The notes below the pieces were generated by a model, which did not search any database, had not been told where the DNA came from, and saw only the letters and a list, made by a program, of their open reading frames with translations. The position numbers and the translations under genes were made by a program. From a virus (Duplodnaviria; Caudoviricetes), in the IMG/VR virus record IMGVR_UViG_2816332575_000003, positions 5,247 through 69,246 of that record: a stretch of 64,000 nucleotides of DNA. One strand, given 5' to 3'. Shown here one piece after another: positions 2,385 to 42,859 of this stretch. How positions within the stretch are numbered: the first letter of the stretch is position 1; every line of letters begins with the position of its first letter.

Positions 2385-3054
2385 GATCAAGCCCGACCGG
2401 TCCGACAAGAGCCGTTGCATCTCTGTCCACTGGAACCTTCCGGTGCAGTGCGTACTGCCTGCCTCGCACCGCGAGAACTGGCACGAAGCCTGGCACCCGC
2501 AGACCGGTAACCGGATGCGCTACCGCCGCAGCATGGGCGTCTACGCCACCGAGGAACTGCACCACGGCGCGTGGCACGACCTAGAGATTCCCCCTCCGGG
2601 CGGCCACTGCAACGACCAGCACAGCCACCAGCCCCACGTGCGCTGCACCCAGCAGTACGGCCACCGGTTCAGCTGGAGTCACACAGCAACCGTCGACGGC
2701 TGCCGCTACACCTGGAACACGCCGCCGCTGAAGGGCCTGACGCCTGATCAGCTTGACTCGGACGTGAAGCAGCTCCGAGGCATGGCCTACGAGCTGGCTG
2801 CCCAGTCAGAGCAGGCCCGGCGCATCGCCGTCGAGCTGGAGAACGAGAACGCGCGGCTGGCGGCCCGTGTTCGCGAGCTGGAGCGCCCGGCTGTTGAGGC
2901 GGAGCGCGCAGAGATCCGCCAGAGCTACACGGAGCTGATTGCCCAGTGCGAACAGGACCGTGACCACGAAGGCGCCTTCGACGTCCAGTGCCGCCTGCGC
3001 GAACGCGAGGAGCAGTGGAAGCGCGAGGACGAAAGCGGTGGTCCGGATGCCTGA
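2377..3054 (+). CDS. Phage hypothetical protein (Cys/His-rich, coiled coil)
   Basis: Overlap-coupled ORF in the early operon. Confidence 0.6.
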   Translation: MPEIKPDRSDKSRCISVHWNLPVQCVLPASHRENWHEAWHPQTGNRMRYRRSMGVYATEELHHGAWHDLEIPPPGGHCNDQHSHQPHVRCTQQYGHRFSWSHTATVDGCRYTWNTPPLKGLTPDQLDSDVKQLRGMAYELAAQSEQARRIAVELENENARLAARVRELERPAVEAERAEIRQSYTELIAQCEQDRDHEGAFDVQCRLREREEQWKREDESGGPDA

Positions 3055-3328
3055 CCTGATGGTGAACCTCGACGGGCGGACCGTACCGCTCGCGGACTGC
3101 CACTGGGTCCTCTTCGACGCCGACGGTTGCGCCGAGGGCTCCCTGTTCGGCCGGTGCGCCGTCGACGAGGAGCAGGCACACCAGGAACTCCGGCCCCTGA
3201 AGCGCGACCGGGACCGCGAGGCCCGGCGCGGCTACCAGGTGCGGCTGCTGACCCGCGAGCAGTGGCGCCGCGACGCCAAGCCGTGCCTCCTCGGCCGCTG
3301 CGAGCACCGGAAGGGCGGTGCGGCATGA
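3047..3328 (+). CDS. Phage hypothetical protein
   Basis: Overlap-coupled ORF. Confidence 0.55.
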   Translation: MPDLMVNLDGRTVPLADCHWVLFDADGCAEGSLFGRCAVDEEQAHQELRPLKRDRDREARRGYQVRLLTREQWRRDAKPCLLGRCEHRKGGAA

Positions 3329-24506: not shown

Positions 24507-24721
24507 TGCGTCCCGCCGCCTGGGTTGCCATGGCCCTGACCGTCGCGCTGGTCGTTGCCTGCCCGCAGATCCTCACCGGCGGCCTGTTCGTAGCGGTCGC
24601 CGCGGTCGGCTTCGCGGTCGGCTGGGTTCTGATGACGCCGCTCGCTGCCGGTGCCGCGCTCGCCGCCACCCTCGTGTGGATCGCGATGCGGCCCGAGACC
24701 GGGCGGAGGTGGGCACGGTGA
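24503..24721 (+). CDS. Small multi-TM Spd-like protein
   Basis: Almost entirely hydrophobic; coupled. Confidence 0.55.
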   Translation: MMRPAAWVAMALTVALVVACPQILTGGLFVAVAAVGFAVGWVLMTPLAAGAALAATLVWIAMRPETGRRWAR

Positions 24722-24936
24722 TCGACGCCGACCTGATGGGCCTGTGCCACGAGCTGGTGATCCAGACGCAGCACGGCTCGGCGAGCATGCTGCAGCGCAA
24801 ACTGCGCATCGGCTACGCGCTGGCCTGCCGAGTGCTCGACGCACTGGAGACCGAAGGCGTGGTCGGGCCGTCGCAAGGCTCGCTGCCCCGCGACGTGCTG
24901 GTCACACCCGACGGGCCGCCGCGGAGGTGGGCGTGA
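24718..24936 (+). CDS. Stand-alone FtsK gamma domain
   Basis: ELVIQTQHGSASMLQRKLRIGYALACRVLDALETEGVVGPSQGSLPRDVLV. Confidence 0.85.
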   Translation: MIDADLMGLCHELVIQTQHGSASMLQRKLRIGYALACRVLDALETEGVVGPSQGSLPRDVLVTPDGPPRRWA

Positions 24937-25403
24937 TGACCGCCACCCAGCCCGCGCCCACTCGCGTCGAGGAGAGGATCGCGAGGACGCAGGGCGAGAT
25001 CGCCCGCACGGACACGAAGGCCAGCATCCTCCTGGCCGCCCTGGCGATCGTCGCCGGTCCGCTCGCGTCGAACGCCGGGACTCTGATCCGCAGCGGCTGG
25101 CCGACCGCCACCGCCACGATCCTCGCCGTGCTCCTCGCCGGCGCCGCCGCATGGCTGCTGCTCGACGTGGTCCTGCCCCGGCTCAACGGCAGCGGAACCG
25201 ACAACTTCATCCACTACGCCCGCTGCACCCGCGCCGAGCTGATCCAGGCGCTGCACGTGACCGCCGACCCCTACCACGAGCTGATCACCCTGGCGCAGAT
25301 CGCCGACGCCAAGATGCGGCGACTTCGCACGGCTGGGTTGTTGCTGAAGCTCGCCGCCGTGCCCGCACTGGCCGCCGCCGCGCTGGCGATCGCCGCCCAC
25401 TGA
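24936..25403 (+). CDS. PycTM / DUF5706-like membrane protein
   Basis: EIARTDTKASILLA...VVLPRL...LAQIADAKMRRLR. Confidence 0.75.
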   Translation: MTATQPAPTRVEERIARTQGEIARTDTKASILLAALAIVAGPLASNAGTLIRSGWPTATATILAVLLAGAAAWLLLDVVLPRLNGSGTDNFIHYARCTRAELIQALHVTADPYHELITLAQIADAKMRRLRTAGLLLKLAAVPALAAAALAIAAH

Positions 25404-25426
25404 CCCACCGCAAGGAGAGTCCTGCC

Positions 25427-26716
25427 GTGAGGCCCTCGAAGATGACGACCGCCGACGAGGTGGCGGCAGCAGACCGCACCCTGACGATCGGCTCGTGGAC
25501 CATCACGATCGGCGCCGTCGTCTACAGCGTCCTGACCGTCACCCCGCTCATGGCCGGGCACACCCCGCCCGGCTGGATCTGGACCTCGCCGATCCTGCCG
25601 CTCGTCGTGGACTCGGCGGTCATCATCGTCACCCGCCTCGACGCCGCCCTGGCCCGGCTAAACGCTCAGGCCGCCCGGGACGGCATCCGGCCCAAGCGGG
25701 CCGTGTGGCCGTTCATCCTCCGCTGGATCACCGGGCTGATGACGCTCGTACTGAACGTCGGCGACGCCGCGCTGGCGGGTGACCTCGTCGGTGTGGGTGT
25801 TCATATGCCGGCCCCGCTCCTGCTGATCGTGAACGCGGAGGCGGCCCTCGCCTACCGCCGGGCGATCGCCACGGCGCAGGCCCGGATCGACCGTGAACAG
25901 CGCGCGAAGGAAGACCGTGAACGCGCCGAGCGCATGGAGCGTGAACGCCTCGCGCGGGAGGAACGGGAGCGTGAACGCGCCCGCCGTGAACACCTTGAAC
26001 GCGAAGCCGCTGAACGCGATGAACGTCGTGAACGGGCCGAGCGTGAACACGTGGTGCGGCTTGAACGCGAGGCCCGTGAACACGCCGCGCAGCAGGAGCG
26101 TGAACGCGCCGAGCGCGAGGAAGCCCGCGAACAGAAGGCCCGTGAACACCAGCTCGCCCTGGAGCGTGAGCGCCTCGCCGCCGAGGAGCGCAAGGCCGCC
26201 GCGGAGCGCGCCGAGAACACCCGGCGCGAGGAAGCCGCACGACAGAAGAGGCAGGCCGAAGAGGAGAAAGCCCGCGCCGAAGACGCACGGCAGGAAGCCG
26301 GCGAACGCGAGCGGCCCGCCCGTGAACAGCCGCCCGTGAACGATCTGAGCGCCACCGACCGTGCCCTCCTTGAACAGGCGATCACCGCTCGTGAACGCGA
26401 ACAGCGCCAAGCCGTGAACACCCCCGTGAACACCCTCCAGCCCGTCGCGGTGAACGCCGTGAACGGCTCCAAGGACGCGGCCCGTGAACACCCCGCGCAG
26501 CCTGCCCGCACCACCCCGGCCGCCGCACCGAAGCGGCCCGTGAACACCCGCCCGGCCAAGACCGTGAACACCCAGAAGCTCCCCGAGCACGAAGCCCGCA
26601 AGACCGTTCACGAAAGCTTCGAAGCCGACCTCAGCGTCCGCGAAGCCGCCGAACTCACCGGCTGGTCCGTCGGCTGGGTGAGCGCCCGATATCAGGAACT
26701 CAAGACCGCCGCCTGA
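25427..26716 (+). CDS. SpdB2 / DUF2637-like protein: 4 TM helices, coiled coil, C-terminal HTH
   Basis: ILPLVVD, TLVLNV, HMPAPLLL; R/E coiled coil; LSVREAAELTGWSVGWV HTH. Confidence 0.75.
   Translation: MRPSKMTTADEVAAADRTLTIGSWTITIGAVVYSVLTVTPLMAGHTPPGWIWTSPILPLVVDSAVIIVTRLDAALARLNAQAARDGIRPKRAVWPFILRWITGLMTLVLNVGDAALAGDLVGVGVHMPAPLLLIVNAEAALAYRRAIATAQARIDREQRAKEDRERAERMERERLAREERERERARREHLEREAAERDERRERAEREHVVRLEREAREHAAQQERERAEREEAREQKAREHQLALERERLAAEERKAAAERAENTRREEAARQKRQAEEEKARAEDARQEAGERERPAREQPPVNDLSATDRALLEQAITAREREQRQAVNTPVNTLQPVAVNAVNGSKDAAREHPAQPARTTPAAAPKRPVNTRPAKTVNTQKLPEHEARKTVHESFEADLSVREAAELTGWSVGWVSARYQELKTAA
25828..26612 (+). repeat. About 20 intragenic CGTGAAC repeats
   Basis: Counted by eye; they occur in two reading frames, with one inverted copy near 26605. 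Confidence 0.85.
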
Positions 26717-26744
26717 CCCCACACACCGAACTTGGAGACATCGA

Positions 26745-27347
26745 ATGGCCGTCAACGGAAAGCGGATTCCGCGGATTCCGCAGCCCCCGGACAACTTCCT
26801 GCCGCCGGGCGTGTGGGCGGACCGCCCCCGACTCAAGCAGTCCTCGCCGCGCGAGCGGGCCGAGGCCCGTGAGGCGAAGCGCAACCGCACCACCTACAAG
26901 ACCAAGAGCCGCACGAAGGAGTACCACGTCCACATCGACAACCGCCGCGGCCCGATTGCGGCGGCTGGCGGGGGCGGGCAGTGGGGCCGCCAGCAGGGCA
27001 TCGGCGACATCGGGGTGGTGTCCGCCTCGGGGCTGAGGGCGCTCTGTGAGCGGGGCCGGCGGGTATTGCGCGACGCGAGCGTCGATATCGCCTACGCCGA
27101 GGAGACGTTGCGCACGGCCCTGCGGAAGGTGCCACCGCGTCCCGGGGAGGGCCGTTCGGCCGCATGGGTACGCGCCAACAAGACCGCGCGCGGCCTGAAG
27201 CGGGCCAAGAACGCAGCTCAGGCCGGGTCGGCACACATGGCCGCGACGTGGATCACCTACACAGTGGAGTACGAGCCGGAGCTGAACCAGTTCGGCGGAC
27301 CGCGGCCACAGCCTCAGAGCCGCCAGGCCATGGACTTCGGGGCGTGA
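26745..27347 (+). CDS. traA: Plasmid transfer protein TraA-like
   Basis: Directly upstream of traB; helical domain ending in the YEPEL...MDF pattern. Confidence 0.6.
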   Translation: MAVNGKRIPRIPQPPDNFLPPGVWADRPRLKQSSPRERAEAREAKRNRTTYKTKSRTKEYHVHIDNRRGPIAAAGGGGQWGRQQGIGDIGVVSASGLRALCERGRRVLRDASVDIAYAEETLRTALRKVPPRPGEGRSAAWVRANKTARGLKRAKNAAQAGSAHMAATWITYTVEYEPELNQFGGPRPQPQSRQAMDFGA

Positions 27348-27351
27348 CGTG

Positions 27352-29352
27352 ATGGCGCAGCAGCAGGCCACCGAGGTCCCGCAGGGCAGCGGCAAGATGC
27401 CCGCGGTCCTGACCTTCCTCAACCGCAAGGTCATCCCGCACACGCCGCCGTTCGCGGTGTGGCTGGCCGAATGGCCGGTCGCCGCCCTGGCGCACCTGCA
27501 ATGGGGCGGCTCGCCCACCGCGTCGGCCGTGCTGTCGCTCATCTCCGGCGGCCTGACCTGGCACACCTGGTACGTCGGCCGGGATGCGAAGAAGCAGCGG
27601 CAGGCGCAGGCCACGGTCACCGTCGGCGCGGCGACCGGCTGGTTCACCGCCGCCACGATCGCCGGGGCCACCGATCCGACGCTGGTCAACGCCTGGCTGA
27701 TGGGCGGCCCGGCCCTCGCCCTCGCCTGGTCGATCAAGATGACGATGCGCACCAACCCCGACCGGCAGCAAAGCGGCGACGAGACGGAGAAGACCCTCTG
27801 GTCGAAGATCGGGCTGGGGCGGGCCAAGGCCAAGGAGATCCGCGCCGAACCCAACAAGGTCGTCATTCCCATGCAGCTGGACGCAGGGGTCCAGACCCAG
27901 GAAGACGCCGCCAAGGCGGGCTCTCGCCTCGCCTCGGCGGTCGGCGTGCGGCCCAATGCGGTGCGCTGGCAGCCCGACCCCGAAGACGCCTCCCAGGGCA
28001 CGTACACGCTGGTCATCGACGACATGCTCAAGGAACCCACCCCGTGGCCGGGCCCGTCCTGCCCCGGCGGCAGCATCGCCGACGCCCCGGTCCCGGCCGG
28101 CGTGTACGAGGACTATGGAACCGCGGACATCTGGTTCCCCGGCGACGAGACGGACGGGCGCAACGCCGCCCACTACCAGTTCATGGGCATGACCGGCGCC
28201 GGAAAGTCCCAGGGCGGCCGGGTCATTCTCGTCGACCTGATGACCCGCCGCGATGTGTGCCTGTGGCTGTTCGACCCGTCCAAAGGCGCGCAGACCTTCG
28301 GGCCGATCCTGCCCGGCGCGGACTGGGCTCTGCTGACGATGAAGGAGTGCAAGGCCGGTATCGCCGTCCTCCCCGATGTGATCACCGCGCGGGCGAACGA
28401 GCTGGGCAAACACGGCTACGACCAGTGGACCCCCGAGGCGGGCGAGAAGCTCGGCATGCCCTACCTGGTCTGCTGGTTCGAGGAGGTCGCCAAGCTGTTC
28501 CGGGACGGCGTCGACCTGGCGCCCGTTGCCCAGGAGGCCCGCTCGGCCGGCATCTCGCTGGTGTTCTCCCTGCAGCGTTCCTCCCACACGTCGATGGACA
28601 CCGACGTCCGGGGCAACATCACCGGCGCGGCCGTGTTCGGCACCAACAGCTCCGTCGACTCCGGCTTCGCCCTGTCCGATGACACCATCGACGCCGGAGC
28701 CCGGCCCGAACTGTGGCGCAACCGCAAGGCCGGCTACTGCTACATCGAAGGCCCCGGCATCGACGAGCAGCGCTACGCCACCCCGGTGCGCACCTACCTG
28801 CTGGACAAGGAGGTGGCGGCGAAAGCCGTAGCGGCCTACCGCAACGTGCGCCCCGCGGACGCCGGGCAGGTCACGGCCGAGGCCGCCGGTCCGGCCTACG
28901 CCCACCGGGTCCGCTACGCCGGCGCCGAGGATGCCGCAGCAGCCCAGAGCGCAGCCGCGGGCGACGACTCCGACCCCGACCTGGACCCCGAGGACGACGC
29001 GCTGTGGGGCGACGGCGAGGAGGCCGCCGTGGCCCGCCGCATCGATATCGACCAGGAGCTGCCGCCGCACACCGGCCGCGACTGGCACTTCGGCGAGCAG
29101 CAGCGCGACACCAAGACGCGCGAGCAGGCGTTGGCGGCCCTCAACGAGGTGCTGGCCGAGTTCGCCGCCCGCGGCCAGATGGAGTTCGGGCCGAAGGAGG
29201 TGACGCCCGAGTTGCCGCGGATCGGCAAGACCTCCTCGTGGGTGCGCAGGGAGCTTCCCAAGCTCGTGGCGCAGGGCGTCCTCGCCGACACCGACGAGGC
29301 CGGCGTGTACCGCATCATCAAGACCCTCGCCGGGGCCGGAACAGGGCCCTGA
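27352..29352 (+). CDS. traB: TraB conjugative FtsK/SpoIIIE-family DNA translocase
   Basis: N-terminal TMs, Walker A GMTGAGKS, WFEE, ARSAGISLVFSLQR, C-terminal wHTH. Confidence 0.9.
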   Translation: MAQQQATEVPQGSGKMPAVLTFLNRKVIPHTPPFAVWLAEWPVAALAHLQWGGSPTASAVLSLISGGLTWHTWYVGRDAKKQRQAQATVTVGAATGWFTAATIAGATDPTLVNAWLMGGPALALAWSIKMTMRTNPDRQQSGDETEKTLWSKIGLGRAKAKEIRAEPNKVVIPMQLDAGVQTQEDAAKAGSRLASAVGVRPNAVRWQPDPEDASQGTYTLVIDDMLKEPTPWPGPSCPGGSIADAPVPAGVYEDYGTADIWFPGDETDGRNAAHYQFMGMTGAGKSQGGRVILVDLMTRRDVCLWLFDPSKGAQTFGPILPGADWALLTMKECKAGIAVLPDVITARANELGKHGYDQWTPEAGEKLGMPYLVCWFEEVAKLFRDGVDLAPVAQEARSAGISLVFSLQRSSHTSMDTDVRGNITGAAVFGTNSSVDSGFALSDDTIDAGARPELWRNRKAGYCYIEGPGIDEQRYATPVRTYLLDKEVAAKAVAAYRNVRPADAGQVTAEAAGPAYAHRVRYAGAEDAAAAQSAAAGDDSDPDLDPEDDALWGDGEEAAVARRIDIDQELPPHTGRDWHFGEQQRDTKTREQALAALNEVLAEFAARGQMEFGPKEVTPELPRIGKTSSWVRRELPKLVAQGVLADTDEAGVYRIIKTLAGAGTGP

Positions 29353-29571
29353 CCTGCTGGAACAGCGCGGAACAGTGGCGGAACAGGGCCTGCGCAGCAC
29401 GGAACAGGCACCGAACAGCGGCGGAACAGCCAACGGAACAGCTCTGACCTCATGGAACAGCGCAAATGTCCTGTTCCGCCGACGGAACAGCGCCGCCTCA
29501 AATCCGTAACGCGCGCGCGAGAACCGCCCACGGAACAGCGACGGAACAGCGCACCGAACAGCAAGGAACAA
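29337..29571 (+). repeat. clt-like locus: GGAACAG repeat array (TraB recognition sequences)
   Basis: 11 direct GGAACAG copies, 3 near-copies and 1 inverted copy in about 235 bp directly after traB. Confidence 0.8.
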
Positions 29572-29594
29572 ACCACCACAAAAAGGAGCCTGAA

Positions 29595-30119
29595 ATGACC
29601 TTCGGTCCACCCCGCTACACCTGGACCGCGACCACCGCCCGGGAAGCCTCGGGGGTGCTGCAGGCGGCCACCGACCTCCTCGACGCGCACATCGGGACGC
29701 TCCGGCTCTCGGTGACCGACGGGGAGAGCCAGTACGAGACGGAGCGCCGCACGCCCGTCCGGCTGGAAGTCAGCTTCGACCTCAGCACGGCTGCCGAGTG
29801 CATCAACGCCGCGCGCACCGAAGCGCTTCCGCTGCCTGAATGGCCGAGGGCCGACGCCCTGGAGTCGGAACCGAAGCTGGGCAAGCACCAGGCGCGAGGA
29901 CTGATGTGGGACTTGATCCATCAGTTCGCCGAAGAGGGGCGCCGAATGATCGGCCCCAAGGACTTCACCACCTACCTGCCCCGGCTGACGCGCTCTCGCC
30001 CCTGGGTCGTAGCCGAGCTGCAACGCCTGGTCGCCGACGGCGTCATCGAAGCAGGCCGCAGCGGCGAGTACCTGCTCAACGGGGGCGTCTTCGCCGTCCA
30101 CCGCCCGGAGGCGCCGTGA
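29595..30119 (+). CDS. Protein with a second TraB-type C-terminal wHTH domain
   Basis: FAEEGRRMIGPKDF...SRPWVVAELQRLVADGVI aligns with TraB FAARGQMEFGPKEV...SSWVRRELPKLVAQGVL. Confidence 0.75.
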   Translation: MTFGPPRYTWTATTAREASGVLQAATDLLDAHIGTLRLSVTDGESQYETERRTPVRLEVSFDLSTAAECINAARTEALPLPEWPRADALESEPKLGKHQARGLMWDLIHQFAEEGRRMIGPKDFTTYLPRLTRSRPWVVAELQRLVADGVIEAGRSGEYLLNGGVFAVHRPEAP

Positions 30120-30319
30120 GGCTGGCCCACACGATCGTCGACACCCTCATCTTCGTGATCCACGCCGTAGCTCTCGGCCTCGCCCTGTGGATCTTCGGGA
30201 GCAGTCTGCCCGGCCCTGTCATGGTCCTGCTCATCTGCCTGACCGCCGCCGCCGACCTGGCCGCCACCGTCCCGCTGGGACGGCTCGCCAACACCATCCG
30301 CGCCAACACCCGCCTGTAG
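30116..30319 (+). CDS. Small 2-TM protein
   Basis: Hydrophobic; coupled. Confidence 0.55.
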   Translation: MRLAHTIVDTLIFVIHAVALGLALWIFGSSLPGPVMVLLICLTAAADLAATVPLGRLANTIRANTRL

Positions 30320-37320: not shown

Positions 37321-37815
37321 ATGGCCGGTATGGGGCCGCCCCCGAAGGATCCGAGCAGGCGGGCTCGGCGCAACAAGGACCTGCAGGCGCAGACCATCCT
37401 GCGGTTCGAGAAGGCGGAAGCGCCCGAACTGCCGGACTTTCGCATCAAGAACGATGAGGGCCGGTCGGTGAAGTTCCGCTGGCCGGAGCGCACCCGGGCA
37501 TGGTGGGCGACGTGGGTGGCCTCGCCGCAGGCGGAGCATTTCTCCTCGACGGACTGGGAGTTCCTCCTCGATACGGCGCTGATTCACGCGAAGGTGTGGA
37601 GCGGTGACCTATCGGCTGCCCCGGAGTTGCGGCTACGAGTGGCCAAGCATGGAGCCACGATGGAGGACCGGGCCCGGCTGCGCATGCAGTTCGCCGCGGC
37701 GGATGAGGCGGACGCGAAGCGCCCGGAGCCGGGCAGCAGCGCGAAGGCCCGGTACGGAACTCTGCATGCTCTGCCCACGAACCGCGGCAAGAAGGCGGCC
37801 GGCGGGGAGCCCTGA
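37321..37815 (+). CDS. Terminase small subunit
   Basis: MAGMGPPPK...ELRLRVAKHGATMEDRARLR; upstream of TerL. Confidence 0.85.
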   Translation: MAGMGPPPKDPSRRARRNKDLQAQTILRFEKAEAPELPDFRIKNDEGRSVKFRWPERTRAWWATWVASPQAEHFSSTDWEFLLDTALIHAKVWSGDLSAAPELRLRVAKHGATMEDRARLRMQFAAADEADAKRPEPGSSAKARYGTLHALPTNRGKKAAGGEP

Positions 37816-39476
37816 TGCCCTGGCGGGGGCCTGAGTTCGAGGGCGAACTGCCGACGCTGGGCTATGCCGTTCTGGACTGGATCCTGGAGATGCTCGCGGC
37901 TCCAGATCGCCCCGAGTACGAGCCGTTCGTTCCGACCCGCGAGCAGGCGGAGTTCATCCTCCGCTTCTATGAGCTGCACCCTGGCACGGGCAAGCGGCGC
38001 ATCCGGCGTGGGGTCCTGAGTCGCCCACGTGGGTGGGGAAAGTCGCCGCTGCTGGCGGCGATTGCTTGCGCCGAGGCGCTCGGCCCGGTGGTCCCGGACG
38101 GCTGGGACGCGAGCGGCGAGCCGGTCGGCACGGGCTGGGACCGGATTCGCACCCCGCTGGTGCAGGTGGCGGCTGTATCCGAAGACCAGACGCAGAACAC
38201 GTGGGCGCCACTGCTGGAGATGCTCCGGCTCGGCCCGGTGATCGATGAGTATCCGGGGCTGGAGCCGCTGGACACGTTCGTCAATCTGCCCCGGGGGAAG
38301 ATCGACCAGGTCACTTCGTCGGCCACCTCACGCAAGGGCAACAAGGCGCTGTTCGCGGTACTTGATCAGACCGAGGAGTGGACGCCGAGCAACGGCGGCA
38401 AGCGACTCGCGCAGGTGATGCGGTCGAACGCGGCGAAGATCGGAGGGACGACGCTGGAGTCCCCGAACGCCTACATCCCCGGTATGGGGTCGGTGGCCGA
38501 GGAGACGGCGGCGTTCGCCAAGGCGATAGCCGAGGGCCGCACTCGTGAGGACGGGCTGTTGTGGGACCACCGGGAGGCGCCGCCGGAGACCGATCCGACG
38601 GACCGTGAATCGCTGGTGGCCGGCTTGCGCTACGCCTACGGGGACAGCTCGGATCACGAGGGCGGGTGCGTGCTGCATTCGCCGCCGTGCCCGCCGGGCT
38701 GGTCGCCGATCGAGCGGCTGGTCGGGGATTTCTGGGACACGTCGAACGATCCGCAGGTGATGCGCTCGGACTTCCTGAACCAGATCACTCATGCCAGTGA
38801 CAGCTGGCTGTCGCAGCCGGAGTGGGCCGGGTGCTCGGACGCGGCCCGGGTGGTCGCCGACGGGGACACCGTCGTGCTCGGCTTCGACGGCTCCCGGGCG
38901 CGGGCCCGCGGCGTGACCGACGCGACCGCGCTGGTCGGCTGCCGTGTCTCGGACGGGCACCTGTTCCTCCTGGGCTGCTGGGAGCAGCCGGAGGGCCCGG
39001 CCGGGCAGGACTGGCGTGTGCCGGTCCTAGAGGTGCTGGCCTCCGTGGAGGAGGCGTTCTCCCGCTTCCGGGTGGTCGGCATGTACGCGGACCCCGCCAA
39101 GTGGGAGGGCCACGTCGCGGACTGGGAGGCCCGGTGGGGCGCCGGGCTGAAGGTGAAGTCAACCCGGGACCATCCCGTCGAGTGGTGGATGACCGGCGGC
39201 CGCTCCAATTTGATCGTCCGCGCCTTGGAGAAGTTTCACTCCGCGGTTCTGGACAAGGAGTTGACGCACGACGGGTCGAGCACGCTGGCCCGGCATGTGC
39301 TGAACGCTCGTCGCCGTAAGGGCCGTTCCGGCATTCAGATCATGAAGGAGCATCCGGACTCCGCACGGAAGATCGACGCCGCGATCGCGTCGGTGCTGGC
39401 GTGGCAGGCCCGGCTGGACGCGGTAGCCAAGGGGTTGGCCGAGGAAGAGCAGCCGATGGGCGGCTTCACGTTCTAA
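37815..39476 (+). CDS. Terminase large subunit
   Basis: RPRGWGKS, LGFDGS, DATAL, KIDAA. Confidence 0.93.
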   Translation: MPWRGPEFEGELPTLGYAVLDWILEMLAAPDRPEYEPFVPTREQAEFILRFYELHPGTGKRRIRRGVLSRPRGWGKSPLLAAIACAEALGPVVPDGWDASGEPVGTGWDRIRTPLVQVAAVSEDQTQNTWAPLLEMLRLGPVIDEYPGLEPLDTFVNLPRGKIDQVTSSATSRKGNKALFAVLDQTEEWTPSNGGKRLAQVMRSNAAKIGGTTLESPNAYIPGMGSVAEETAAFAKAIAEGRTREDGLLWDHREAPPETDPTDRESLVAGLRYAYGDSSDHEGGCVLHSPPCPPGWSPIERLVGDFWDTSNDPQVMRSDFLNQITHASDSWLSQPEWAGCSDAARVVADGDTVVLGFDGSRARARGVTDATALVGCRVSDGHLFLLGCWEQPEGPAGQDWRVPVLEVLASVEEAFSRFRVVGMYADPAKWEGHVADWEARWGAGLKVKSTRDHPVEWWMTGGRSNLIVRALEKFHSAVLDKELTHDGSSTLARHVLNARRRKGRSGIQIMKEHPDSARKIDAAIASVLAWQARLDAVAKGLAEEEQPMGGFTF

Positions 39477-39496
39477 AGCGAAGGCGGGGTGACGCC

Positions 39497-40879
39497 GTGC
39501 TGGACGACACCCCGGGAACACCGGACTGGTGGCTGCTCAGGCTGGGCCGCAGGCTGCGGGACCGGCGCAAGGAGCTGGACCGCTGGTGGAACTACTACCG
39601 GGGGCGGCATCCGCTGCCGTCGCTGCCGAAGAACGCCGCTGCGGCGTTCCTGGAGTTCCAGCGCAAGTCCCGGACGAACTTCTGCCGGCCGGTGGCGGAC
39701 GCACCGGTACACCGTCTGCAGGTGCTCGGGGTGACCGACGGGCAGGGCGAGCCGGACGATGATGCGCTGCGCTGGTGGCAGGCGAACAAGCTGGACTCGC
39801 GGCAGAAGCTGCTGTACCGGACGGTGATGGCGCAGGCGCAGGCATACGTCATCGTGGGGCCGCATCCGCGGCGCACGGAAGGGGACGGCAGGCCGGCGCC
39901 ACTGATCACCGCGGAGCATCCGCGGCAGGTCATCGTCGAGCACGACCCCGCCACGGGCGAGCGGGCCGCCGCGCTGAAGGCGTGGTGGGACGACGTGGAC
40001 CGGATCGGCCGGGCGACCGTGTTCCTGCCCGGCGGACTGCAGCGCTACGTGACCGCGCGCCGCGGCGGCATGGTGCTGCCGTGGGGTGCGGAGTCGTGGG
40101 AGCTGGACGGCGAGTTCGAGGAGCACGATCTGGGGGCGGTGCCGGTCGTGCCGTTTGAGTGCCGACCGGGCCTGATGGAGGACCCGGAGCCGGAGTTCGC
40201 CGGTGTGCTCGACATCCAGGACCGCATCAACCTGGGCGTGCTGAACCGGATGACAGCGGCCCGCTACTCGGCGTTCCGGCAGGGTTTCGTGACCGGTCAC
40301 AAGTTCCGTAAGCGGGTGGACCCGGCGACGGGGCTGGAGACGGTGGAGATGCCGTTCGTGCCGTCGCCGTCGGCGCTGTGGGCCTCCGAGGGCGAGAACG
40401 TAAAGTTCGGGCAACTGGATGCCACCGACCTGTCCGGCTTCCTGAAGGAGCACGAGTCGGACGTGCGGGACATGTTGGTGCTCTCCCACACCCCTGCCTA
40501 CTACTTCGCCTCCGACCTGGTGAACATCAGCGCCGACACGGTCAACGCCCTGGACGTCAACCATCTGGCCAAGGTCGGCGAGCATCAGGCCGCGCTCGGG
40601 GAGGCGTGGGAGGACGTCTTCGCGCTCGCGGCCGCGCAGGCTGGCATCGACCGGGACTACGCGCAGGCGGAGGTCCGGTGGGCTGATCCGCGCCGCCTGA
40701 ACCCGTCGGTGATCGCGGATGCGGCGACGAAGAAGCACAGCGTCGGCTACCCGCTGTCGATCCTGGCCGAGGACATGGGCGAGTCGCCGCAGCGGGTGCG
40801 TCGCATCGCCTCGGAGGCCGCCGGCGCGGCGCTGCTGTCCGCTCCTGCCGGATCGGCGGCTGAGACGGGTGCCTCATGA
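39497..40879 (+). CDS. Portal protein (SPP1 gp6-like)
   Basis: YYRGRH, TNFC, IQDRIN; position after TerL. Confidence 0.9.
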   Translation: MLDDTPGTPDWWLLRLGRRLRDRRKELDRWWNYYRGRHPLPSLPKNAAAAFLEFQRKSRTNFCRPVADAPVHRLQVLGVTDGQGEPDDDALRWWQANKLDSRQKLLYRTVMAQAQAYVIVGPHPRRTEGDGRPAPLITAEHPRQVIVEHDPATGERAAALKAWWDDVDRIGRATVFLPGGLQRYVTARRGGMVLPWGAESWELDGEFEEHDLGAVPVVPFECRPGLMEDPEPEFAGVLDIQDRINLGVLNRMTAARYSAFRQGFVTGHKFRKRVDPATGLETVEMPFVPSPSALWASEGENVKFGQLDATDLSGFLKEHESDVRDMLVLSHTPAYYFASDLVNISADTVNALDVNHLAKVGEHQAALGEAWEDVFALAAAQAGIDRDYAQAEVRWADPRRLNPSVIADAATKKHSVGYPLSILAEDMGESPQRVRRIASEAAGAALLSAPAGSAAETGAS

Positions 40880-41682
40880 GCGAGGTGACCCAGGCGGCCC
40901 TCGACGCCCGGTACACGAGCGTGACCGTCGCTCTTCGCCAGCGACTGCTGGCGCTGGCCGGGCAGCTGTTCGGCGCCACAGGAACCTACCGGGACGCGGA
41001 CGCGGACGCGTTCGTCGAACGGGTCCTGCCCGTGGTGCTGGGGGCGCAGCGTCAGGTGGGCGCCCTGACGGACGCCTACTTGACGCAGATGGTGGCGGAC
41101 ATGTTCGGCGGCGCGGCGCTGGCCCGGGGCGTGGAGCTTCCGGCGGCGCTGCGGGGCACGCCGCCCGAGGAGGTCTACCGGCGTCCGTTCGTGACGGTGT
41201 GGACGGCGCTGTCGCAAGGCAAGCCGCTGGCGGAGGCGGTCCGGCAGGGCCGGGACCGGCTGGCGTCGATCGCGGCCACCGATCTGCAGCTGGCGCGCCG
41301 GGAGGCGACCCGCCAGTCGCTTGCCGGGGACAGCCGGGTGCAGTTCTACCGGCGCTTCCTGCGCGGGTCGGGCAACTGCGCCCTGTGCGTGATCGCCTCG
41401 ACGCAGCGGTACCGCAAGGAACGGCTGATGCCCATCCACCCAGGCTGCGACTGCGGCACCCGCCCCCTGGCGGCGGGCCAGGATCCGGGCCAGATCATCG
41501 ACGCGGGGCTGCTGGAGGACGCGCACACCGCGGTCGCCAAGGCCACCGGACAGTCGGACCGCGGCGGCCGGCTGCCCGACTACCGGGACATCATCATCGA
41601 CCGCCACCACGGCGAACTGGGCGAGCTGCTGGCCCTGCGCCGCCACGACTTCACCGGCCCCAAGGACATCCCCGGCCAGTGA
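40876..41682 (+). CDS. Minor capsid / MuF-like head morphogenesis protein
   Basis: CALC...HPGCDC. Confidence 0.75.
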   Translation: MSEVTQAALDARYTSVTVALRQRLLALAGQLFGATGTYRDADADAFVERVLPVVLGAQRQVGALTDAYLTQMVADMFGGAALARGVELPAALRGTPPEEVYRRPFVTVWTALSQGKPLAEAVRQGRDRLASIAATDLQLARREATRQSLAGDSRVQFYRRFLRGSGNCALCVIASTQRYRKERLMPIHPGCDCGTRPLAAGQDPGQIIDAGLLEDAHTAVAKATGQSDRGGRLPDYRDIIIDRHHGELGELLALRRHDFTGPKDIPGQ

Positions 41683-41742
41683 CCTGCGCGGCCGACACGG
41701 CCGTGCCCCCTTACACACCAGCCCGACACGGGAGCACTACGT

Positions 41743-42453
41743 ATGCGCGCACGCACCTTCGCACGCCGCCGGCACACCCACGCTGCCGCCGCATGGTCCC
41801 ACCCCTACCCGTCCACGCCGTGGTCGCCGGTCCTGTACGCGGACGGCGGCGAGAGCGGCACCGAGGACGGCCAGTCCGATGACAACGGGGACGGCAAGCC
41901 CGACACGGGCGGGGCGTCCACCGAGGCCGGCAAGCCCGGCGACGGCGACAGCACGGACTGGAAGGCCGAGGCGGAGAAGTACCGGGCCCTGCAGAAGAAG
42001 TGGGAAGCCCGCGCGAAGGAGAACGCCACCGCGGCCAAGGAGCGCGACGAACTGCGCAAGCAGTCCATGTCCGACCAGGAACGCGCCGTCGAGGAGGCGT
42101 CCGCGAAGGCGCGCACCGAAGAGCGCGTCCGCCTGGCCGGCAAGCTCGCCCGCCAGGGCTTCCTGGCCGCCGCCGCAGGCCGCATCCCCCACGCCGCCTC
42201 CGTCGCCGACGACCTCAACCTCGCCAAGTACGTCGGGGAGGACGGCGAGGTCGACGAGAGCGGCCTGGCCGGACTGGTCGACCGGCTCGCGCCGCCGGCG
42301 CCGCAGAAGAAGGCGGACGCGGACACCAAGCAGGAGCAGCGCGCAGAGCGCGGCTTCGACCAGGGGCCGCGCGGCAGCGGCGGGCGGGAGAAGGCCACAT
42401 CGGTCGCCTCCGGGCGCGATCTATGGGCGCAGCGCAAGAAGACCACCATCTGA
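41743..42453 (+). CDS. Capsid scaffolding protein
   Basis: Acidic low-complexity segment, DWKAEAEK...WEARAKEN coiled coil. Confidence 0.8.
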   Translation: MRARTFARRRHTHAAAAWSHPYPSTPWSPVLYADGGESGTEDGQSDDNGDGKPDTGGASTEAGKPGDGDSTDWKAEAEKYRALQKKWEARAKENATAAKERDELRKQSMSDQERAVEEASAKARTEERVRLAGKLARQGFLAAAAGRIPHAASVADDLNLAKYVGEDGEVDESGLAGLVDRLAPPAPQKKADADTKQEQRAERGFDQGPRGSGGREKATSVASGRDLWAQRKKTTI

Positions 42454-42469
42454 CTCCCGAGGACGGGAC

Positions 42470-42859
42470 ATGAACCTGAACCCGAAGAGCGAGGTGTTCG
42501 GGCAGGACGACCAGTCGTGGCTGGCGTCCGCGCACGGAACCGACACCGCACGCTCGATCACCCTGGACACGTCCGCGTTCACCGCGGGCACCCACTACCC
42601 CAACGGCTACTTCCCCTCCGGCCTGCCCCTGGGGAAGATCACCGCCACCGGTAAGTACGGCCCCTACAACAACGCCTCCACTGACGGCACCGAGGTGCTG
42701 GCCGGCTTCCTGTTCACCTCGATCGCAGCACCCACGGTCACCACCGTCGACCCGCAGGGCGCCCTGCTGTGGCACGGTGCCGTGATCGAAGCCAAGCTGC
42801 CCGCCGCCGTCGACGCCGCCGGCAAGACCGACGTCGCCGGCCGCATCACCTTCTTCTGA
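42470..42859 (+). CDS. Head decoration protein
   Basis: PSGLPLGKITATGKYGPY...GFLF. Confidence 0.8.
   Translation: MNLNPKSEVFGQDDQSWLASAHGTDTARSITLDTSAFTAGTHYPNGYFPSGLPLGKITATGKYGPYNNASTDGTEVLAGFLFTSIAAPTVTTVDPQGALLWHGAVIEAKLPAAVDAAGKTDVAGRITFF

What the first reader, a model, noticed from the sequence alone, without database searches (positions are those of the whole stretch)
25828..26612. Membrane-anchored HTH gene packed with about 20 frame-independent CGTGAAC repeats
The heptamer recurs about 20 times (plus TGAAC variants), nearly all in one orientation. It is read as CGT-GAA-C (R-E) in the coiled coil and as GTG-AAC (V-N) further on, and it forces CGT and GAA codons that are disfavoured in this DNA. 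Selection therefore appears to act on the DNA, not the protein. The protein has TM helices, a coiled coil and a C-terminal HTH. The hypothesis is that it binds an array within its own gene, forming a one-gene centromere/tether or a second directional loading site for intramycelial spread. The GAAC core is shared with the clt repeat GGAACAG.
Basis: partly seen in the sequence, partly recalled or inferred. Interest (0 to 1): 0.75.

Follow-up and report, generated by a model that had tools for sequence, protein, structure and literature searches.

The report
Membrane DNA-anchor gene with internal sites
A membrane protein with a small DNA-binding tail, encoded next to the DNA pump of a Streptomyces mobile element, has about twenty copies of one eight-letter DNA word written into its own gene, and relatives change the word together with the tail, so the gene most likely carries the sites by which its protein holds the element's DNA at the membrane.

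Summary
CGTGAAC occurs 21 times in 25828-26612 (20 forward, 1 reverse). It is the only such cluster in the 9.6-Mb genome. Thirteen copies read CGT-GAA-C (R-E) and seven read GTG-AAC (V-N). The R-E copies use codons that are rare here.

The gene (about 25427-26716) encodes four hydrophobic helices, a 160-residue charged helix, a Pro-rich linker and a tri-helical HTH modelled at pLDDT 96.

I examined 90 homologous loci:
- 70 with an x(V/I)R...GWS(V/I)GW.S tail carry CGTGAAC.
- 12 with an xQR...GWS(T/A/S)GW.A tail carry CGTGAGC and no CGTGAAC.
- pWTY27 carries CGCGAAC.
- Three relatives without the HTH carry none.

A blind scan of 283 alignment columns put the three best word-separating residues at the starts of HTH helices 2 and 3.

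The TraB/clt word pair varies independently (GGAACAG here, TGACACC in most relatives). The "second TraB loading site" reading is therefore not supported.

Best reading: the protein's own HTH binds the array in its gene and tethers the element to the membrane beside TraB. Binding is untested.

The closest published precedent is SpdA2-sps of pIJ101. The scan's unchecked notes describe the same kind of array, with other words, on other DNA.

The parts
25427..26716 (+). Gene for the membrane-anchored HTH protein (DUF2637/SpdB-like). The likely start is GTG 25427, 7 nt after the RBS AAGGAGAG at 25412-25419. ATG 25442 is the alternative start and was used for residue numbering in this report. The stop codon ends at 26716.
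   Evidence: ORF list, sequence. RefSeq names the homologues 'DUF2637 domain-containing protein'. phrog_25954 matches at E 4.9e-21.
25484..25849 (+). N-terminal membrane domain with four hydrophobic segments (aa 15-39, 46-69, 88-106, 112-136 from ATG 25442).
   Evidence: Kyte-Doolittle scan. It is the most conserved part of the family. A homologue, L012, scores 21.5 bits on PF10935, against a cut-off of 22.8.
25862..26341 (+). Charged Arg/Glu-rich helical spacer (aa 141-300, 94 of 160 residues charged). It hosts the R-E-frame copies of the word.
   Evidence: Composition, frames.
26342..26569 (+). Pro/Ala/Thr-rich linker (aa 301-376). It hosts most V-N-frame copies (PVNT, AVNT, TVNT).
26570..26713 (+). 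C-terminal tri-helical HTH (aa 377-424). Helix 2 starts at V399 and the recognition helix at V410.
   Evidence: AlphaFold2 on 78-row alignment A4 gives mean pLDDT 96.1 and helices 6-18, 23-30, 34-47. Pfam HTH_23 matches 62 and Sigma70_r4_2 matches 38 of 77 valid family members. The best fold matches are DNA-bound homeodomain/HTH domains, all with E >= 0.37.
25828..26612 (+). Array of 21 CGTGAAC(R) words: 20 forward and 1 reverse (26606-26612, inside helix 1 of the HTH coding part).
26745..27347 (+). traA (context).
   Evidence: NF041213 at E 2.8e-22, 79.5 bits against a cut-off of 80.
27349..29352 (+). traB, the FtsK-like dsDNA translocase (context).
   Evidence: NF041214 at E 4.2e-220, 732.6 bits against a cut-off of 800.
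29338..29549 (+). clt-like array of GGAACAG (11 forward, 1 reverse) at and after the traB stop. This is the separate, canonical TraB target.

Best explanation
The gene encodes a membrane protein of four TM helices, with a roughly 160-residue charged helical spacer and a flexible linker in the cytoplasm, ending in a small tri-helical HTH. The 8-bp word CGTGAACR, written about 20 times into the spacer and linker coding region of the same gene, is the binding site of that HTH. Many protein copies bound to the array would hold the element's DNA at the membrane, next to the TraB pump encoded two genes downstream. This would serve intramycelial spreading and/or segregational stability.

Placing the sites in the protein's own gene favours capture in cis. 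Transcription, translation and membrane insertion are coupled, so the HTH, which is made last, emerges beside the DNA that encodes it.

Specificity is set by a few HTH residues. V399/V410/S414 go with ...GAAC, and Q/(T,A,S)/A go with ...GAGC. Related elements therefore carry private words.

Shown here: the array, its selection at the DNA level, the domain architecture, and the word-HTH co-variation.
Inferred: binding itself, cytoplasmic topology, the tethering function and cis capture.
For: 1. DNA-level selection.
- The word is read in two frames and uses rare CGT and GAA codons only where they build it.
- In 70 CGTGAAC-class loci the gene holds 8.68 forward copies per kb, against 0.129 per kb per strand in 800 kb of flanks.
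- 579 of 1604 R-E dipeptides there are CGT-GAA. The expectation is about 3%, from CGT 261/2233 and GAA 475/1857 in other contexts.

2. The protein bends to the word. Second-frame copies read V-N (54), V-S (16) or A-N (4) according to the locus's word.

3. Word and HTH go together in all 81 loci of the first set that have an HTH.
- 69 x(V/I)R tails carry 4-20 CGTGAAC, apart from pWTY27.
- 11 xQR tails carry 0 CGTGAAC and 9-14 CGTGAGC.
- pWTY27 (GWSVAWVSDRR) carries CGCGAAC x14.
- Two more plasmids fit: L084 has xQR with CGTGAGC x11, and L088 has xVR with CGTGAAC x13.

4. Blind column scan. Of 283 scorable columns of the full-length alignment, the three that best separate the two word classes are aa 399, 410 and 414. 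These are the first residue of helix 2 and residues 1 and 5 of helix 3.

5. Natural loss control. Relatives with another C-terminus and no HTH (L009, L068, L089) have 0 copies. L009 and L068 keep R/E-rich spacers, yet 0 of their 33 R-E dipeptides are CGT-GAA.

6. The xQR/CGTGAGC class sits at three places on a tree of the N-terminal domain. An AU test rejects one clade at p 0.006.

7. Sites turn over while their number is kept. The window has 20 and its closest relative L004 has 18, with only 9 in shared alignment columns.

8. Reverse copies are also enriched (0.50 and 1.53 per kb against 0.13 and 0.23 per kb). This fits recognition of double-stranded DNA.

9. Precedent on Streptomyces plasmids. 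SpdA2 binds sps sites inside its own coding region and affects segregational stability (PMC4170104: abstract, Results part 1 and Discussion read). SpdB2 is a 4-TM spread protein reported to bind dsDNA non-specifically and to interact with TraB (PMC4447253: passages read).
Against: - No binding was measured, and the tools cannot model protein-DNA complexes.
- The HTH and the array lie in one gene. Recombination would move them together, so co-variation could partly reflect linkage.
- The phylogenetically independent contrasts number only 2 on well-supported branches (3 on all branches). A sign test cannot reach significance.
- The group for the AU test was named after the tree was seen.
- Only two well-populated word classes, plus one singleton, were sampled.
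- Two distant plasmid homologues (L086, L087, 37% identity, a different HTH) show no clear array. The rule may not hold for the whole family.
- The window's own HTH gets no Pfam hit (in-frame 72-residue piece, E <= 0.1).
- Fold matches are all non-significant, with best E 0.37.
- Published SpdB2 DNA binding was called non-specific (PMC4447253 passage). Homology of this protein to pSVH1 SpdB2 was not tested here.
Confidence: 0.55

Rival explanations
1. Same binding, different purpose. The HTH binds the array in its own gene mainly as a transcriptional roadblock or autoregulator. This would limit expression of the gene and of the downstream, potentially toxic traA-traB, as a kil-override-like brake. 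Tethering would not be the main role.
For: The array lies on the transcribed path directly upstream of traA-traB. Unregulated traB is toxic and is normally held down by a GntR repressor (PMC4447253 passage). In this window the GntR-like gene is co-oriented and not divergent. All the co-variation evidence fits this reading equally well.
Against: A regulator does not need membrane anchoring, a 160-residue spacer or 10-20 sites. In pJV1 the homologue lies after traB and before rep, not upstream of traB. Only 26 of 84 loci have this TraB type downstream.
Confidence: 0.15
2. The array is read by TraB, or by another transfer protein of the element. It would be a second clt-like loading or orienting site for DNA translocation during spreading.
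For: The words are 8 bp long, are direct repeats, and are co-oriented with the clt array. A profile comparison finds weak similarity between this HTH and the TraB C-terminal wHTH, at probability 64% and E 6.5e-5 over 45 columns. This suggests a related reading head.
Against: - The clt word follows the TraB helix: SRPWVSARLK with (C)TGACAC(C), (S/G)RSWVSKRLK with CGTCACA, RSRGWVSGQV with CTGACGC, and KTSSWVRREL with GGAACAG.
- The clt word is independent of the heptamer class. TGACACC pairs with CGTGAAC in L001 and L004, and with CGTGAGC in L050. In pWTY27, which carries CGCGAAC, TGACACC is the clt repeat footprinted by TraA (PMC3583192 passages).
- Heptamer-family words are almost absent from the 26 clt regions examined: 7 single copies in all.
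- Only 26 of 84 loci have this TraB type, and L012 has only a distant FtsK-like protein.
- The motor-less TraB-like wHTH ORF after the clt is not conserved in other loci.
Confidence: 0.08
3. A conserved host protein reads the words. One candidate is the redox sensor Rex, whose operator half-site is T(T/C)GTGAA(C). The element would then recruit or titrate a host factor.
For: The published Streptomyces Rex operators are TGTGAACNNNTTCACA, and half-sites such as TCGTGAA are weakly bound (PMC5355995, passages read). CGTGAAC matches a half-site.
Against: A conserved host protein does not explain concerted switches to CGTGAGC or CGCGAAC that track the element's own HTH. It also does not explain the absence of words where the HTH is absent. 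The copies are direct repeats, and no full inverted operator is present. The single reverse copy lies 37 bp from its nearest forward neighbour.
Confidence: 0.04
4. The signal acts at the RNA or translation level. It could be a sense-strand mRNA motif or a run of rare codons that slows ribosomes during membrane insertion.
For: Strand bias is 20:1. CGT and GAA are rare codons.
Against: - The V-N copies use common codons (GTG 76 of 182 Val, AAC 44 of 48 Asn).
- The CGTGAGC class replaces rare GAA by common GAG yet keeps the array.
- Position 8 is a purine in both frames.
- Reverse-strand copies are enriched 4- to 7-fold.
- No Rfam family matches.
- The word tracks residues of a DNA-binding fold.
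Confidence: 0.05
5. The copies are relics of internal duplication of a repetitive protein segment, with no function of their own.
For: Tandem Repeats Finder finds a few short local repeats, with periods 9-24 and 2-2.7 copies.
Against: Those repeats cover only a few copies. Flanks are unconserved and two frames are used. Sites turn over yet their number is maintained between relatives. Synonymous sites are held across 80+ loci.
Confidence: 0.02

Closest known systems
SpdA2 and its sps sites on pIJ101, with SpdA homologues of pJV1, pSN22 and pSVH1 (Thoma et al. 2014, PMC4170104; abstract, Results part 1 and Discussion read)
   Same: It is a Streptomyces plasmid 'spread/stability' protein that binds specific DNA sites lying inside its own coding region. 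The sites impose an amino-acid motif on the protein (SRDD/E there, R-E or V-N here). Synonymous removal of the sites was used as the test. The proposed role is plasmid positioning or stability in hyphae.
   Different: SpdA2 is a 135-aa soluble protein with an N-terminal zinc-finger-like DNA-binding region. Its site is a 12-bp palindrome (CGTCACGTGACG) present 1-3 times and almost invariant between plasmids. Here the protein is membrane-anchored with a C-terminal HTH. The site is an 8-bp asymmetric word present 5-21 times in two reading frames, and it differs between elements together with the HTH.
TraB and the clt / 8-bp repeats of Streptomyces conjugative plasmids (pSVH1, pJV1, pWTY27; PMC4447253 and PMC3583192 passages read; Vogelmann et al. 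2011 not held)
   Same: These are arrays of short direct repeats (7-9 bp), specific to each plasmid and read by a C-terminal (w)HTH. One search shows the same kind of word-helix co-variation for TraB/clt as for this protein. The two reading heads are weakly similar.
   Different: clt lies at or after the 3' end of traB, is mostly non-coding and holds 4-12 copies. Its reader is a hexameric ATPase pump. The present array lies in another gene, its word varies independently of clt, and the presumed reader has no ATPase.
SpdB2 of pSVH1 (PMC4447253 passages read; Tiffert et al. 2007 not seen)
   Same: [quoted passage not shown] It interacts with TraB and binds dsDNA. It is said to have homologues on all conjugative Streptomyces plasmids and some actinophages.
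   Different: The reported DNA binding is non-specific, and no site array has been described. Its stated layout differs: an N-terminal coiled coil (aa 1-99) and a C-terminal domain (aa 206-409). Sequence homology to the window protein was not tested, because the pSVH1 sequence was not on hand.
ParB/Spo0J with parS inside the spo0J gene, and RacA with its ram sites, in Bacillus subtilis
   Same: A centromere-like site can sit inside the gene of the protein that binds it. Arrays of short sites can be used to fasten DNA to a membrane-associated anchor.
   Different: Those proteins are soluble and reach the membrane or pole through partners (DivIVA, Soj/MinD-type ATPases). No ParB domain was found here. 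Here the anchor, spacer, reading head and sites are all in one gene.

Membership tests
DUF2637 (Pfam PF10935) | Score at or above the Pfam gathering cut-off on the N-terminal membrane domain | tested here: inconclusive
   The window protein has no Pfam hit at E <= 0.01 and none to PF10935 at E <= 10. Homologue L012 scores 21.5 bits against a cut-off of 22.8. RefSeq names most homologues 'DUF2637 domain-containing protein', and a few carry a precomputed PF10935.
SpdB2-type spread proteins of Streptomyces plasmids | Integral membrane protein with four TM helices encoded in the tra/spd operon | tested here: met
   There are four hydrophobic segments. The gene lies directly upstream of traA-traB. 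The same synteny holds on pWTY27 and an S. longwoodensis plasmid.
SpdB2-type spread proteins of Streptomyces plasmids | Sequence homology to pSVH1 SpdB2, and a requirement for pock formation and spreading | not tested
   The pSVH1 sequence was not fetched and the phenotype needs genetics. The pWTY27 paper says one pWTY27 ORF resembles SpdB2 of pSG2, but its ORF table is a supplement that I could not see.
clt / TraB recognition repeats | Short direct repeats of about 7-9 bp in many copies | tested here: met
   The 8-bp word CGTGAACR occurs 21 times.
clt / TraB recognition repeats | Location at or just after the 3' end of traB, and a word that follows the TraB recognition helix | tested here: not met
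   The array lies 0.7-1.5 kb upstream of traB, in another gene. The canonical position is occupied by GGAACAG x12. The clt word tracks the TraB helix independently of the heptamer class.
SpdA / sps system | 12-bp palindromic sps (CGTCACGTGACG type) in or next to a small spdA gene | tested here: not met
   The word here is asymmetric and 8 bp long. The inverted repeats found in the gene are long-range chance-like pairs. The protein has 424-429 aa and is membrane-anchored.
Tri-helical HTH DNA-binding domains (HTH_23 / sigma-70 region 4-like) | Three-helix bundle with a helix-turn-helix, detectable by profile | tested here: met
   The AF2 model has pLDDT 96.1 and helices 6-18, 23-30, 34-47. HTH_23 matches 62 family members (best E 5e-6) and Sigma70_r4_2 matches 38 (best E 3.7e-5) of 77 valid members. 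The window's own piece gives no hit. Foldseek hits are DNA-bound HTH or homeodomains, but all have E >= 0.37. The PDB profile search gives nothing below E 0.017.
ParB/parS partition systems | ParB-type N-terminal and HTH domains with a palindromic parS | tested here: not met
   No ParB-family hit appears in Pfam or NCBIfam for the protein. The word is not palindromic.

The most novel reading that the evidence does not exclude
This would be a one-gene, self-addressed membrane centromere. A single ORF supplies the membrane anchor, a rigid charged spacer, a programmable reading head and, in its own codons, the 10-20 docking sites. The newly made protein captures in cis the very DNA molecule that encoded it and parks it at the TraB/Spd translocation site in hyphae. 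One-letter changes of the word, matched by one to three residue changes in the HTH (V/V/S with GAAC, Q/T/A with GAGC), would create private, non-cross-reacting 'addresses'. Those addresses would let co-resident plasmids, AICEs and phage-plasmids avoid competing for each other's anchors. One genome (Streptomyces sp. NPDC048603) carries both classes, in L016/L017 and L021. The family is large, with at least 1640 protein clusters, and is annotated only as DUF2637 or hypothetical.
Probability: 0.35. Interest if true: 0.85.

Novelty: new variant of a known kind. Interest (0 to 1): 0.72.

Why it matters
How Streptomyces plasmids, AICEs and related phage-like elements position their double-stranded DNA at the membrane pump is an open question. 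So is how they move it through compartmented hyphae. The Spd proteins are known to be required, but they have no assigned molecular activity beyond non-specific DNA binding and pore formation (PMC4447253).

A sequence-specific, membrane-anchored reader with a mapped site array would give that field several things:
- A concrete, testable DNA-protein contact.
- A simple specificity code of three HTH residues against one base of the word.
- A ready experiment, synonymous recoding of the array, as was done for sps in PMC4170104.

It would also give a function to a large DUF family. And it is a clear case of a coding sequence shaped by a second, non-protein code.

Tried and rejected
- **My error (out-of-frame row).** The first row of alignment A2 (window:26494-26713) was out of frame.
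  - The first structure job (pLDDT 61) is meaningless and used one of my two jobs.
  - In one search, 'member 1: 0 families' is that bad row, so the counts refer to 77 valid members.
  - Searches used the same alignment. I repeated them in frame as A4.
- **Nucleotide search of plasmids.** A megablast of 25000-30200 against plasmids found nothing.
- **Pfam and NCBIfam on the window protein.** These gave no useful family.
- **PDB searches.** The sequence profile search found nothing better than E 0.017. Foldseek found nothing at E <= 0.001. I did not run the VIA-align libraries.
It is found near 50 of 83 other loci, but only 4 of those are CGTGAGC-class. No column shows a class-specific residue. 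Power is low and there is no support.
Its 21 tblastn hits in other loci fall inside traB itself, so it is not conserved as a separate gene.
- **Helical phasing.** Spacings peak at 9, 21, 24 and 33 bp. Most loci are close relatives, and 628 of 663 spacings are multiples of 3 because of coding. I draw no conclusion.
- **Distant homologues L086 and L087.** No clear over-represented word was found.
- **Literature searches.**
  - 'DUF2637' gave 2 papers with unrelated titles and abstracts.
  - 'spdB2 + Streptomyces + plasmid' gave 6 papers. None describes such arrays in its title, abstract or the passages I read.
  - 'CGTGAAC + Streptomyces + plasmid' gave 55 papers, of which 15 were listed. The listing shows none on a site array in a spread gene. 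I opened only the Rex paper.
  - 'TraB clt ...' was searched.
  - Vogelmann 2011, Sepulveda 2011 and Servin-Gonzalez 1996 are not held. Tiffert 2007 and Servin-Gonzalez 1995 were not looked up.
  - Supplements are closed, including the pWTY27 ORF table. 'Not in print' therefore rests on these searches only.
Full report
**What is there**

The window carries CGTGAAC 32 times. Shuffles give 9.4 +/- 3.1, and 0 of 100 shuffles reach 32. Of these copies, 21 lie in 25828-26612, with 20 on the + strand and 1 on the - strand.

In the whole 9.64-Mb assembly the word occurs 1471 times, or 0.153 per kb on both strands. This is the only place with 5 or more copies in 800 bp.

The array lies inside one ORF. 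Its likely start is GTG 25427, 7 nt after the RBS AAGGAGAG. ATG 25442 is the alternative start, and I use it for residue numbering.

Of the 20 forward copies, 13 read CGT-GAA-C (Arg-Glu) and 7 read GTG-AAC (Val-Asn). One more GTGAAC without the leading C also reads V-N.

The codon evidence is as follows:
- In 8 other high-GC3 ORFs of the window, CGT is 7.5% of Arg codons and GAA is 20% of Glu codons. None of the 11 R-E dipeptides there is CGT-GAA.
- In the focal gene, 13 of 24 R-E dipeptides are CGT-GAA.
- Only 2 of 37 Arg codons not followed by Glu are CGT.

The base after the word is always a purine, in both frames, so the unit is the 8-mer CGTGAACR.

Local tandem duplication covers only a few copies. 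No Rfam family matches.

**The protein**

A hydropathy scan gives four hydrophobic segments, at aa 15-39, 46-69, 88-106 and 112-136. Next comes a 160-residue stretch with 94 charged residues (Arg/Glu-rich). It could be a coiled coil or a single charged helix, and I could not fold the full length. A Pro/Ala/Thr-rich linker of 76 residues follows.

The last 48 residues fold as a three-helix bundle at mean pLDDT 96.1, using a 78-row alignment. The helices are 6-18, 23-30 and 34-47.

An earlier fold was run on an out-of-frame translation through my own mistake and must be ignored.

Family members match Pfam HTH_23 (62 members) and Sigma70_r4_2 (38 members) out of 77 valid members. The window's own piece gives no Pfam hit.

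Foldseek returns DNA-bound homeodomains, transposase HTHs, Trp repressor and a SigW domain 4 bound to -35 DNA. All have E >= 0.37, as expected for 48 residues.

Public sources name the relatives 'DUF2637 domain-containing protein' or 'hypothetical'. At least 1640 clusters score E <= 1e-5 among the 8000 candidates scored. The protein also matches phage family phrog_25954.

**Surroundings**

traA (NF041213) and traB (NF041214, the FtsK-like dsDNA pump) follow directly.

At and after the traB stop lies a separate array of GGAACAG, with 11 forward and 1 reverse copy in 29338-29549. This is the canonical position of a clt.

About 8 kb further on are a large terminase, a portal and a head-decoration gene. 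The transfer module therefore sits in a phage-like element, as another note on this window says.

**Relatives**

tblastn against plasmids found 24 records, among them pJV1, pWTY27 and pSN22. A scan of species-representative genomes found 126 relatives, of which the best 80 were kept.

I examined 90 loci in all: the window, 80 genomic loci and 9 plasmid loci.

| Tail of the protein | Loci | Word found in the gene |
|---|---|---|
| x(V/I)R...GWS(V/I)GW.S | 70, window included | CGTGAAC, 4-20 copies |
| xQR...GWS(T/A/S)GW(I/V)A | 12 | CGTGAGC, 9-14 copies; no CGTGAAC |
| GWSVAWVSDRR (pWTY27) | 1 | CGCGAAC, 14 copies |
| Different C-terminus, no HTH (L009, L068, L089) | 3 | none of these words |
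| Frameshifted tail (L057) | 1 | mixed low counts |
| Annotated CDS truncated (pSN22) | 1 | CGTGAGC x8 |
| Another HTH, 37% identity (L086, L087) | 2 | no clear word |

L009 and L068 keep Arg/Glu-rich spacers, yet 0 of their 33 R-E dipeptides are CGT-GAA. L089 has the same kind of no-HTH tail and also lacks the words.

Pooled densities are:

| Word class | Forward, in gene (per kb) | Reverse, in gene (per kb) | Flanks (per kb per strand) |
|---|---|---|---|
| CGTGAAC | 8.68 | 0.50 | 0.129 |
| CGTGAGC | 10.5 | 1.53 | 0.227 |

In the second reading frame the protein follows the word. It reads V-N (54 copies), V-S (16) or A-N (4) according to the locus.

Second-frame copies occur in 21 of 70 CGTGAAC-class loci and in 6 of 12 CGTGAGC-class loci.

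Between the window and its closest relative L004, the counts are 20 and 18 sites. Only 9 of them fall in the same alignment columns. Number is kept and position is not.

**Who reads the word**

A blind scan of 283 scorable columns of the full-length protein alignment asked which columns best separate CGTGAGC loci from CGTGAAC loci. The top three are:
- aa 399: V or I against Q, with no overlap.
- aa 410: V or I against A, T or S.
- aa 414: S against A.

In the model these are the first residue of helix 2 and residues 1 and 5 of helix 3, the recognition helix.

On a tree built from the N-terminal 150 residues only, the CGTGAGC/xQR class sits in three places. One pair (L016, L017) nests inside a well-supported clade of CGTGAAC loci, which includes L021 from the same genome.

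Holding the class together costs 89 log-likelihood units (AU p 0.006). The group was named after I had seen the tree.

Independent contrasts number only 2 on supported branches, or 3 on all branches. All are concordant, but that is too few for a sign test.

Array and HTH lie in one gene, so recombination would carry both. Co-variation alone therefore cannot exclude a linked reader.

Among the 26 of 84 loci with this TraB type, the word repeated after traB follows the TraB helix:

| TraB recognition helix | Word repeated after traB |
|---|---|
| SRPWVSARLK | (C)TGACAC(C), among the top words in 15 loci |
| (S/G)RSWVSKRLK | CGTCACA |
| RSRGWVSGQV | CTGACGC |
| KTSSWVRREL (this window) | GGAACAG |

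TGACACC is the repeat that TraA of pWTY27 footprints (PMC3583192, passages read).

These clt words are independent of the heptamer class. TGACACC occurs with CGTGAAC and with CGTGAGC in the clt regions examined, and it is the published clt repeat of pWTY27, which carries CGCGAAC. Heptamer-family words are almost absent from the clt regions: 7 single copies in the 26 regions.

The other 58 loci have other or distant translocases. L012, for example, has only a weak FtsK/EccC-like match.

The GntR repressor shows no class-specific residue, though power is low with only 4 CGTGAGC loci. The motor-less TraB-like wHTH ORF after the clt is not conserved elsewhere.

The two reading heads may share ancestry. 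A profile comparison of this HTH with the TraB C-terminus gives probability 64% and E 6.5e-5.

**Mechanism proposed**

The protein's own HTH most likely binds CGTGAACR. Up to about 20 membrane-anchored copies on one DNA molecule would fasten the element to the membrane beside the TraB/Spd apparatus.

Sites inside the protein's own gene would favour capture in cis, through coupled transcription, translation and membrane insertion. That step is inference.

The function could be spreading through hyphae, segregational stability, or both. A roadblock or autoregulatory role on traA-traB is a live variant.

I recall that ECF sigma region 4 domains read -35 elements with a GGAAC-like core.

**What is known**

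- SpdA2 of pIJ101 binds the 12-bp palindrome sps, which lies 2-3 times within its own coding region. Removing sps synonymously impaired segregational stability but not transfer (PMC4170104: abstract, Results part 1 and Discussion read).
- TraB reads 8-bp direct repeats in clt (PMC4447253 passage).
- SpdB2 of pSVH1 is a 4-TM, pore-forming, TraB-interacting spread protein. It is described as binding dsDNA non-specifically and as having homologues on all conjugative Streptomyces plasmids and some actinophages (PMC4447253 passages).
- None of the texts I could search or read describes a word array in a DUF2637/SpdB-type gene, or word-HTH co-variation. Several key papers are not held and supplements are closed.

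Unchecked notes of this scan report the same kind of array with other words (CGCATCA, YGGACCG, GAGACG) in DUF2637/SpdB-like membrane-HTH genes on other DNA. Within the scan this is therefore a repeat find. Here it comes with a closely graded word series and a residue-level code.

**Verdict**

- The self-binding interpretation is supported by comparative evidence but is untested biochemically.
- The TraB-loading alternative is not supported.

I class the finding as a new variant of a known kind. The known kinds are site-specific DNA-binding spread/partition proteins with sites in their own gene, and plasmid-specific 8-mer arrays. My confidence is 0.55 in binding plus tethering taken together. 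For binding by the protein's own HTH alone, I would put it at about two in three.

Noticed in passing
window 29338-29549; loci L001-L082 after traB: The word repeated after traB co-varies with the TraB C-terminal recognition helix across 26 loci. SRPWVSARLK goes with (C)TGACAC(C), (S/G)RSWVSKRLK with CGTCACA, RSRGWVSGQV with CTGACGC, and KTSSWVRREL (this window) with GGAACAG x12. This is a small specificity table for TraB/clt.
   Followed up: partly
window 29466-30119 (or 29595-30119): The ORF directly after the clt has a C-terminus that matches the last 150 positions of the TraB model (NF041214, E 2.7e-14) but has no ATPase part. As a separate gene it is not conserved in the other loci examined.
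   Followed up: partly
window 37815-42859: A large terminase (phrog_9, E 2.8e-67), a portal (phrog_104, E 4.7e-101) and a head-decoration protein lie about 8 kb downstream of traB. The TraB/clt/Spd module therefore sits in a phage-like element. pWTY27 also carries a phage capsid gene.
   Followed up: partly
window 24651-25403; L002 (pJV1) 1778-2221: The ORF just upstream of the focal gene matches the Pycsar effector TM domain (PF18967, E 4.6e-8). pJV1 has a gene annotated 'Pycsar system effector family protein' right after its homologue of the focal gene. This may be a small membrane Spd-type protein and not a defence gene.
   Followed up: no
L009, L068, L089: A sub-family keeps the membrane domain and charged spacer but replaces the HTH by another conserved C-terminus (...FCGSNLGRRLGRS...PKFE.WY...). 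It has no word array. What its tail binds is unknown.
   Followed up: no
window 26762-26781: GCGGATTCC is repeated 2.2 times in tandem, forming an overlapping 14-nt palindrome (GCGGATTCCGCGGA) just inside the 5' end of traA.
   Followed up: no
L016, L017, L021 (one genome, Streptomyces sp. NPDC048603): One genome carries three copies of the family: two of the CGTGAGC/xQR class and one of the CGTGAAC/xVR class. Their N-terminal domains are closely related. This is a natural case of co-resident elements with different words.
   Followed up: partly
L086, L087, L088: These plasmids have a 'sigma factor-like HTH' gene just upstream of the DUF2637-type gene (RefSeq annotation). L086 and L087 homologues have a different C-terminal HTH and no obvious word array.
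   Followed up: no
L085 (pSN22) 2495-3250: The annotated CDS of the pSN22 homologue ends early at 252 aa, with an out-of-register-looking tail. It still holds CGTGAGC x8. This may be a frameshift in the record.
   Followed up: no
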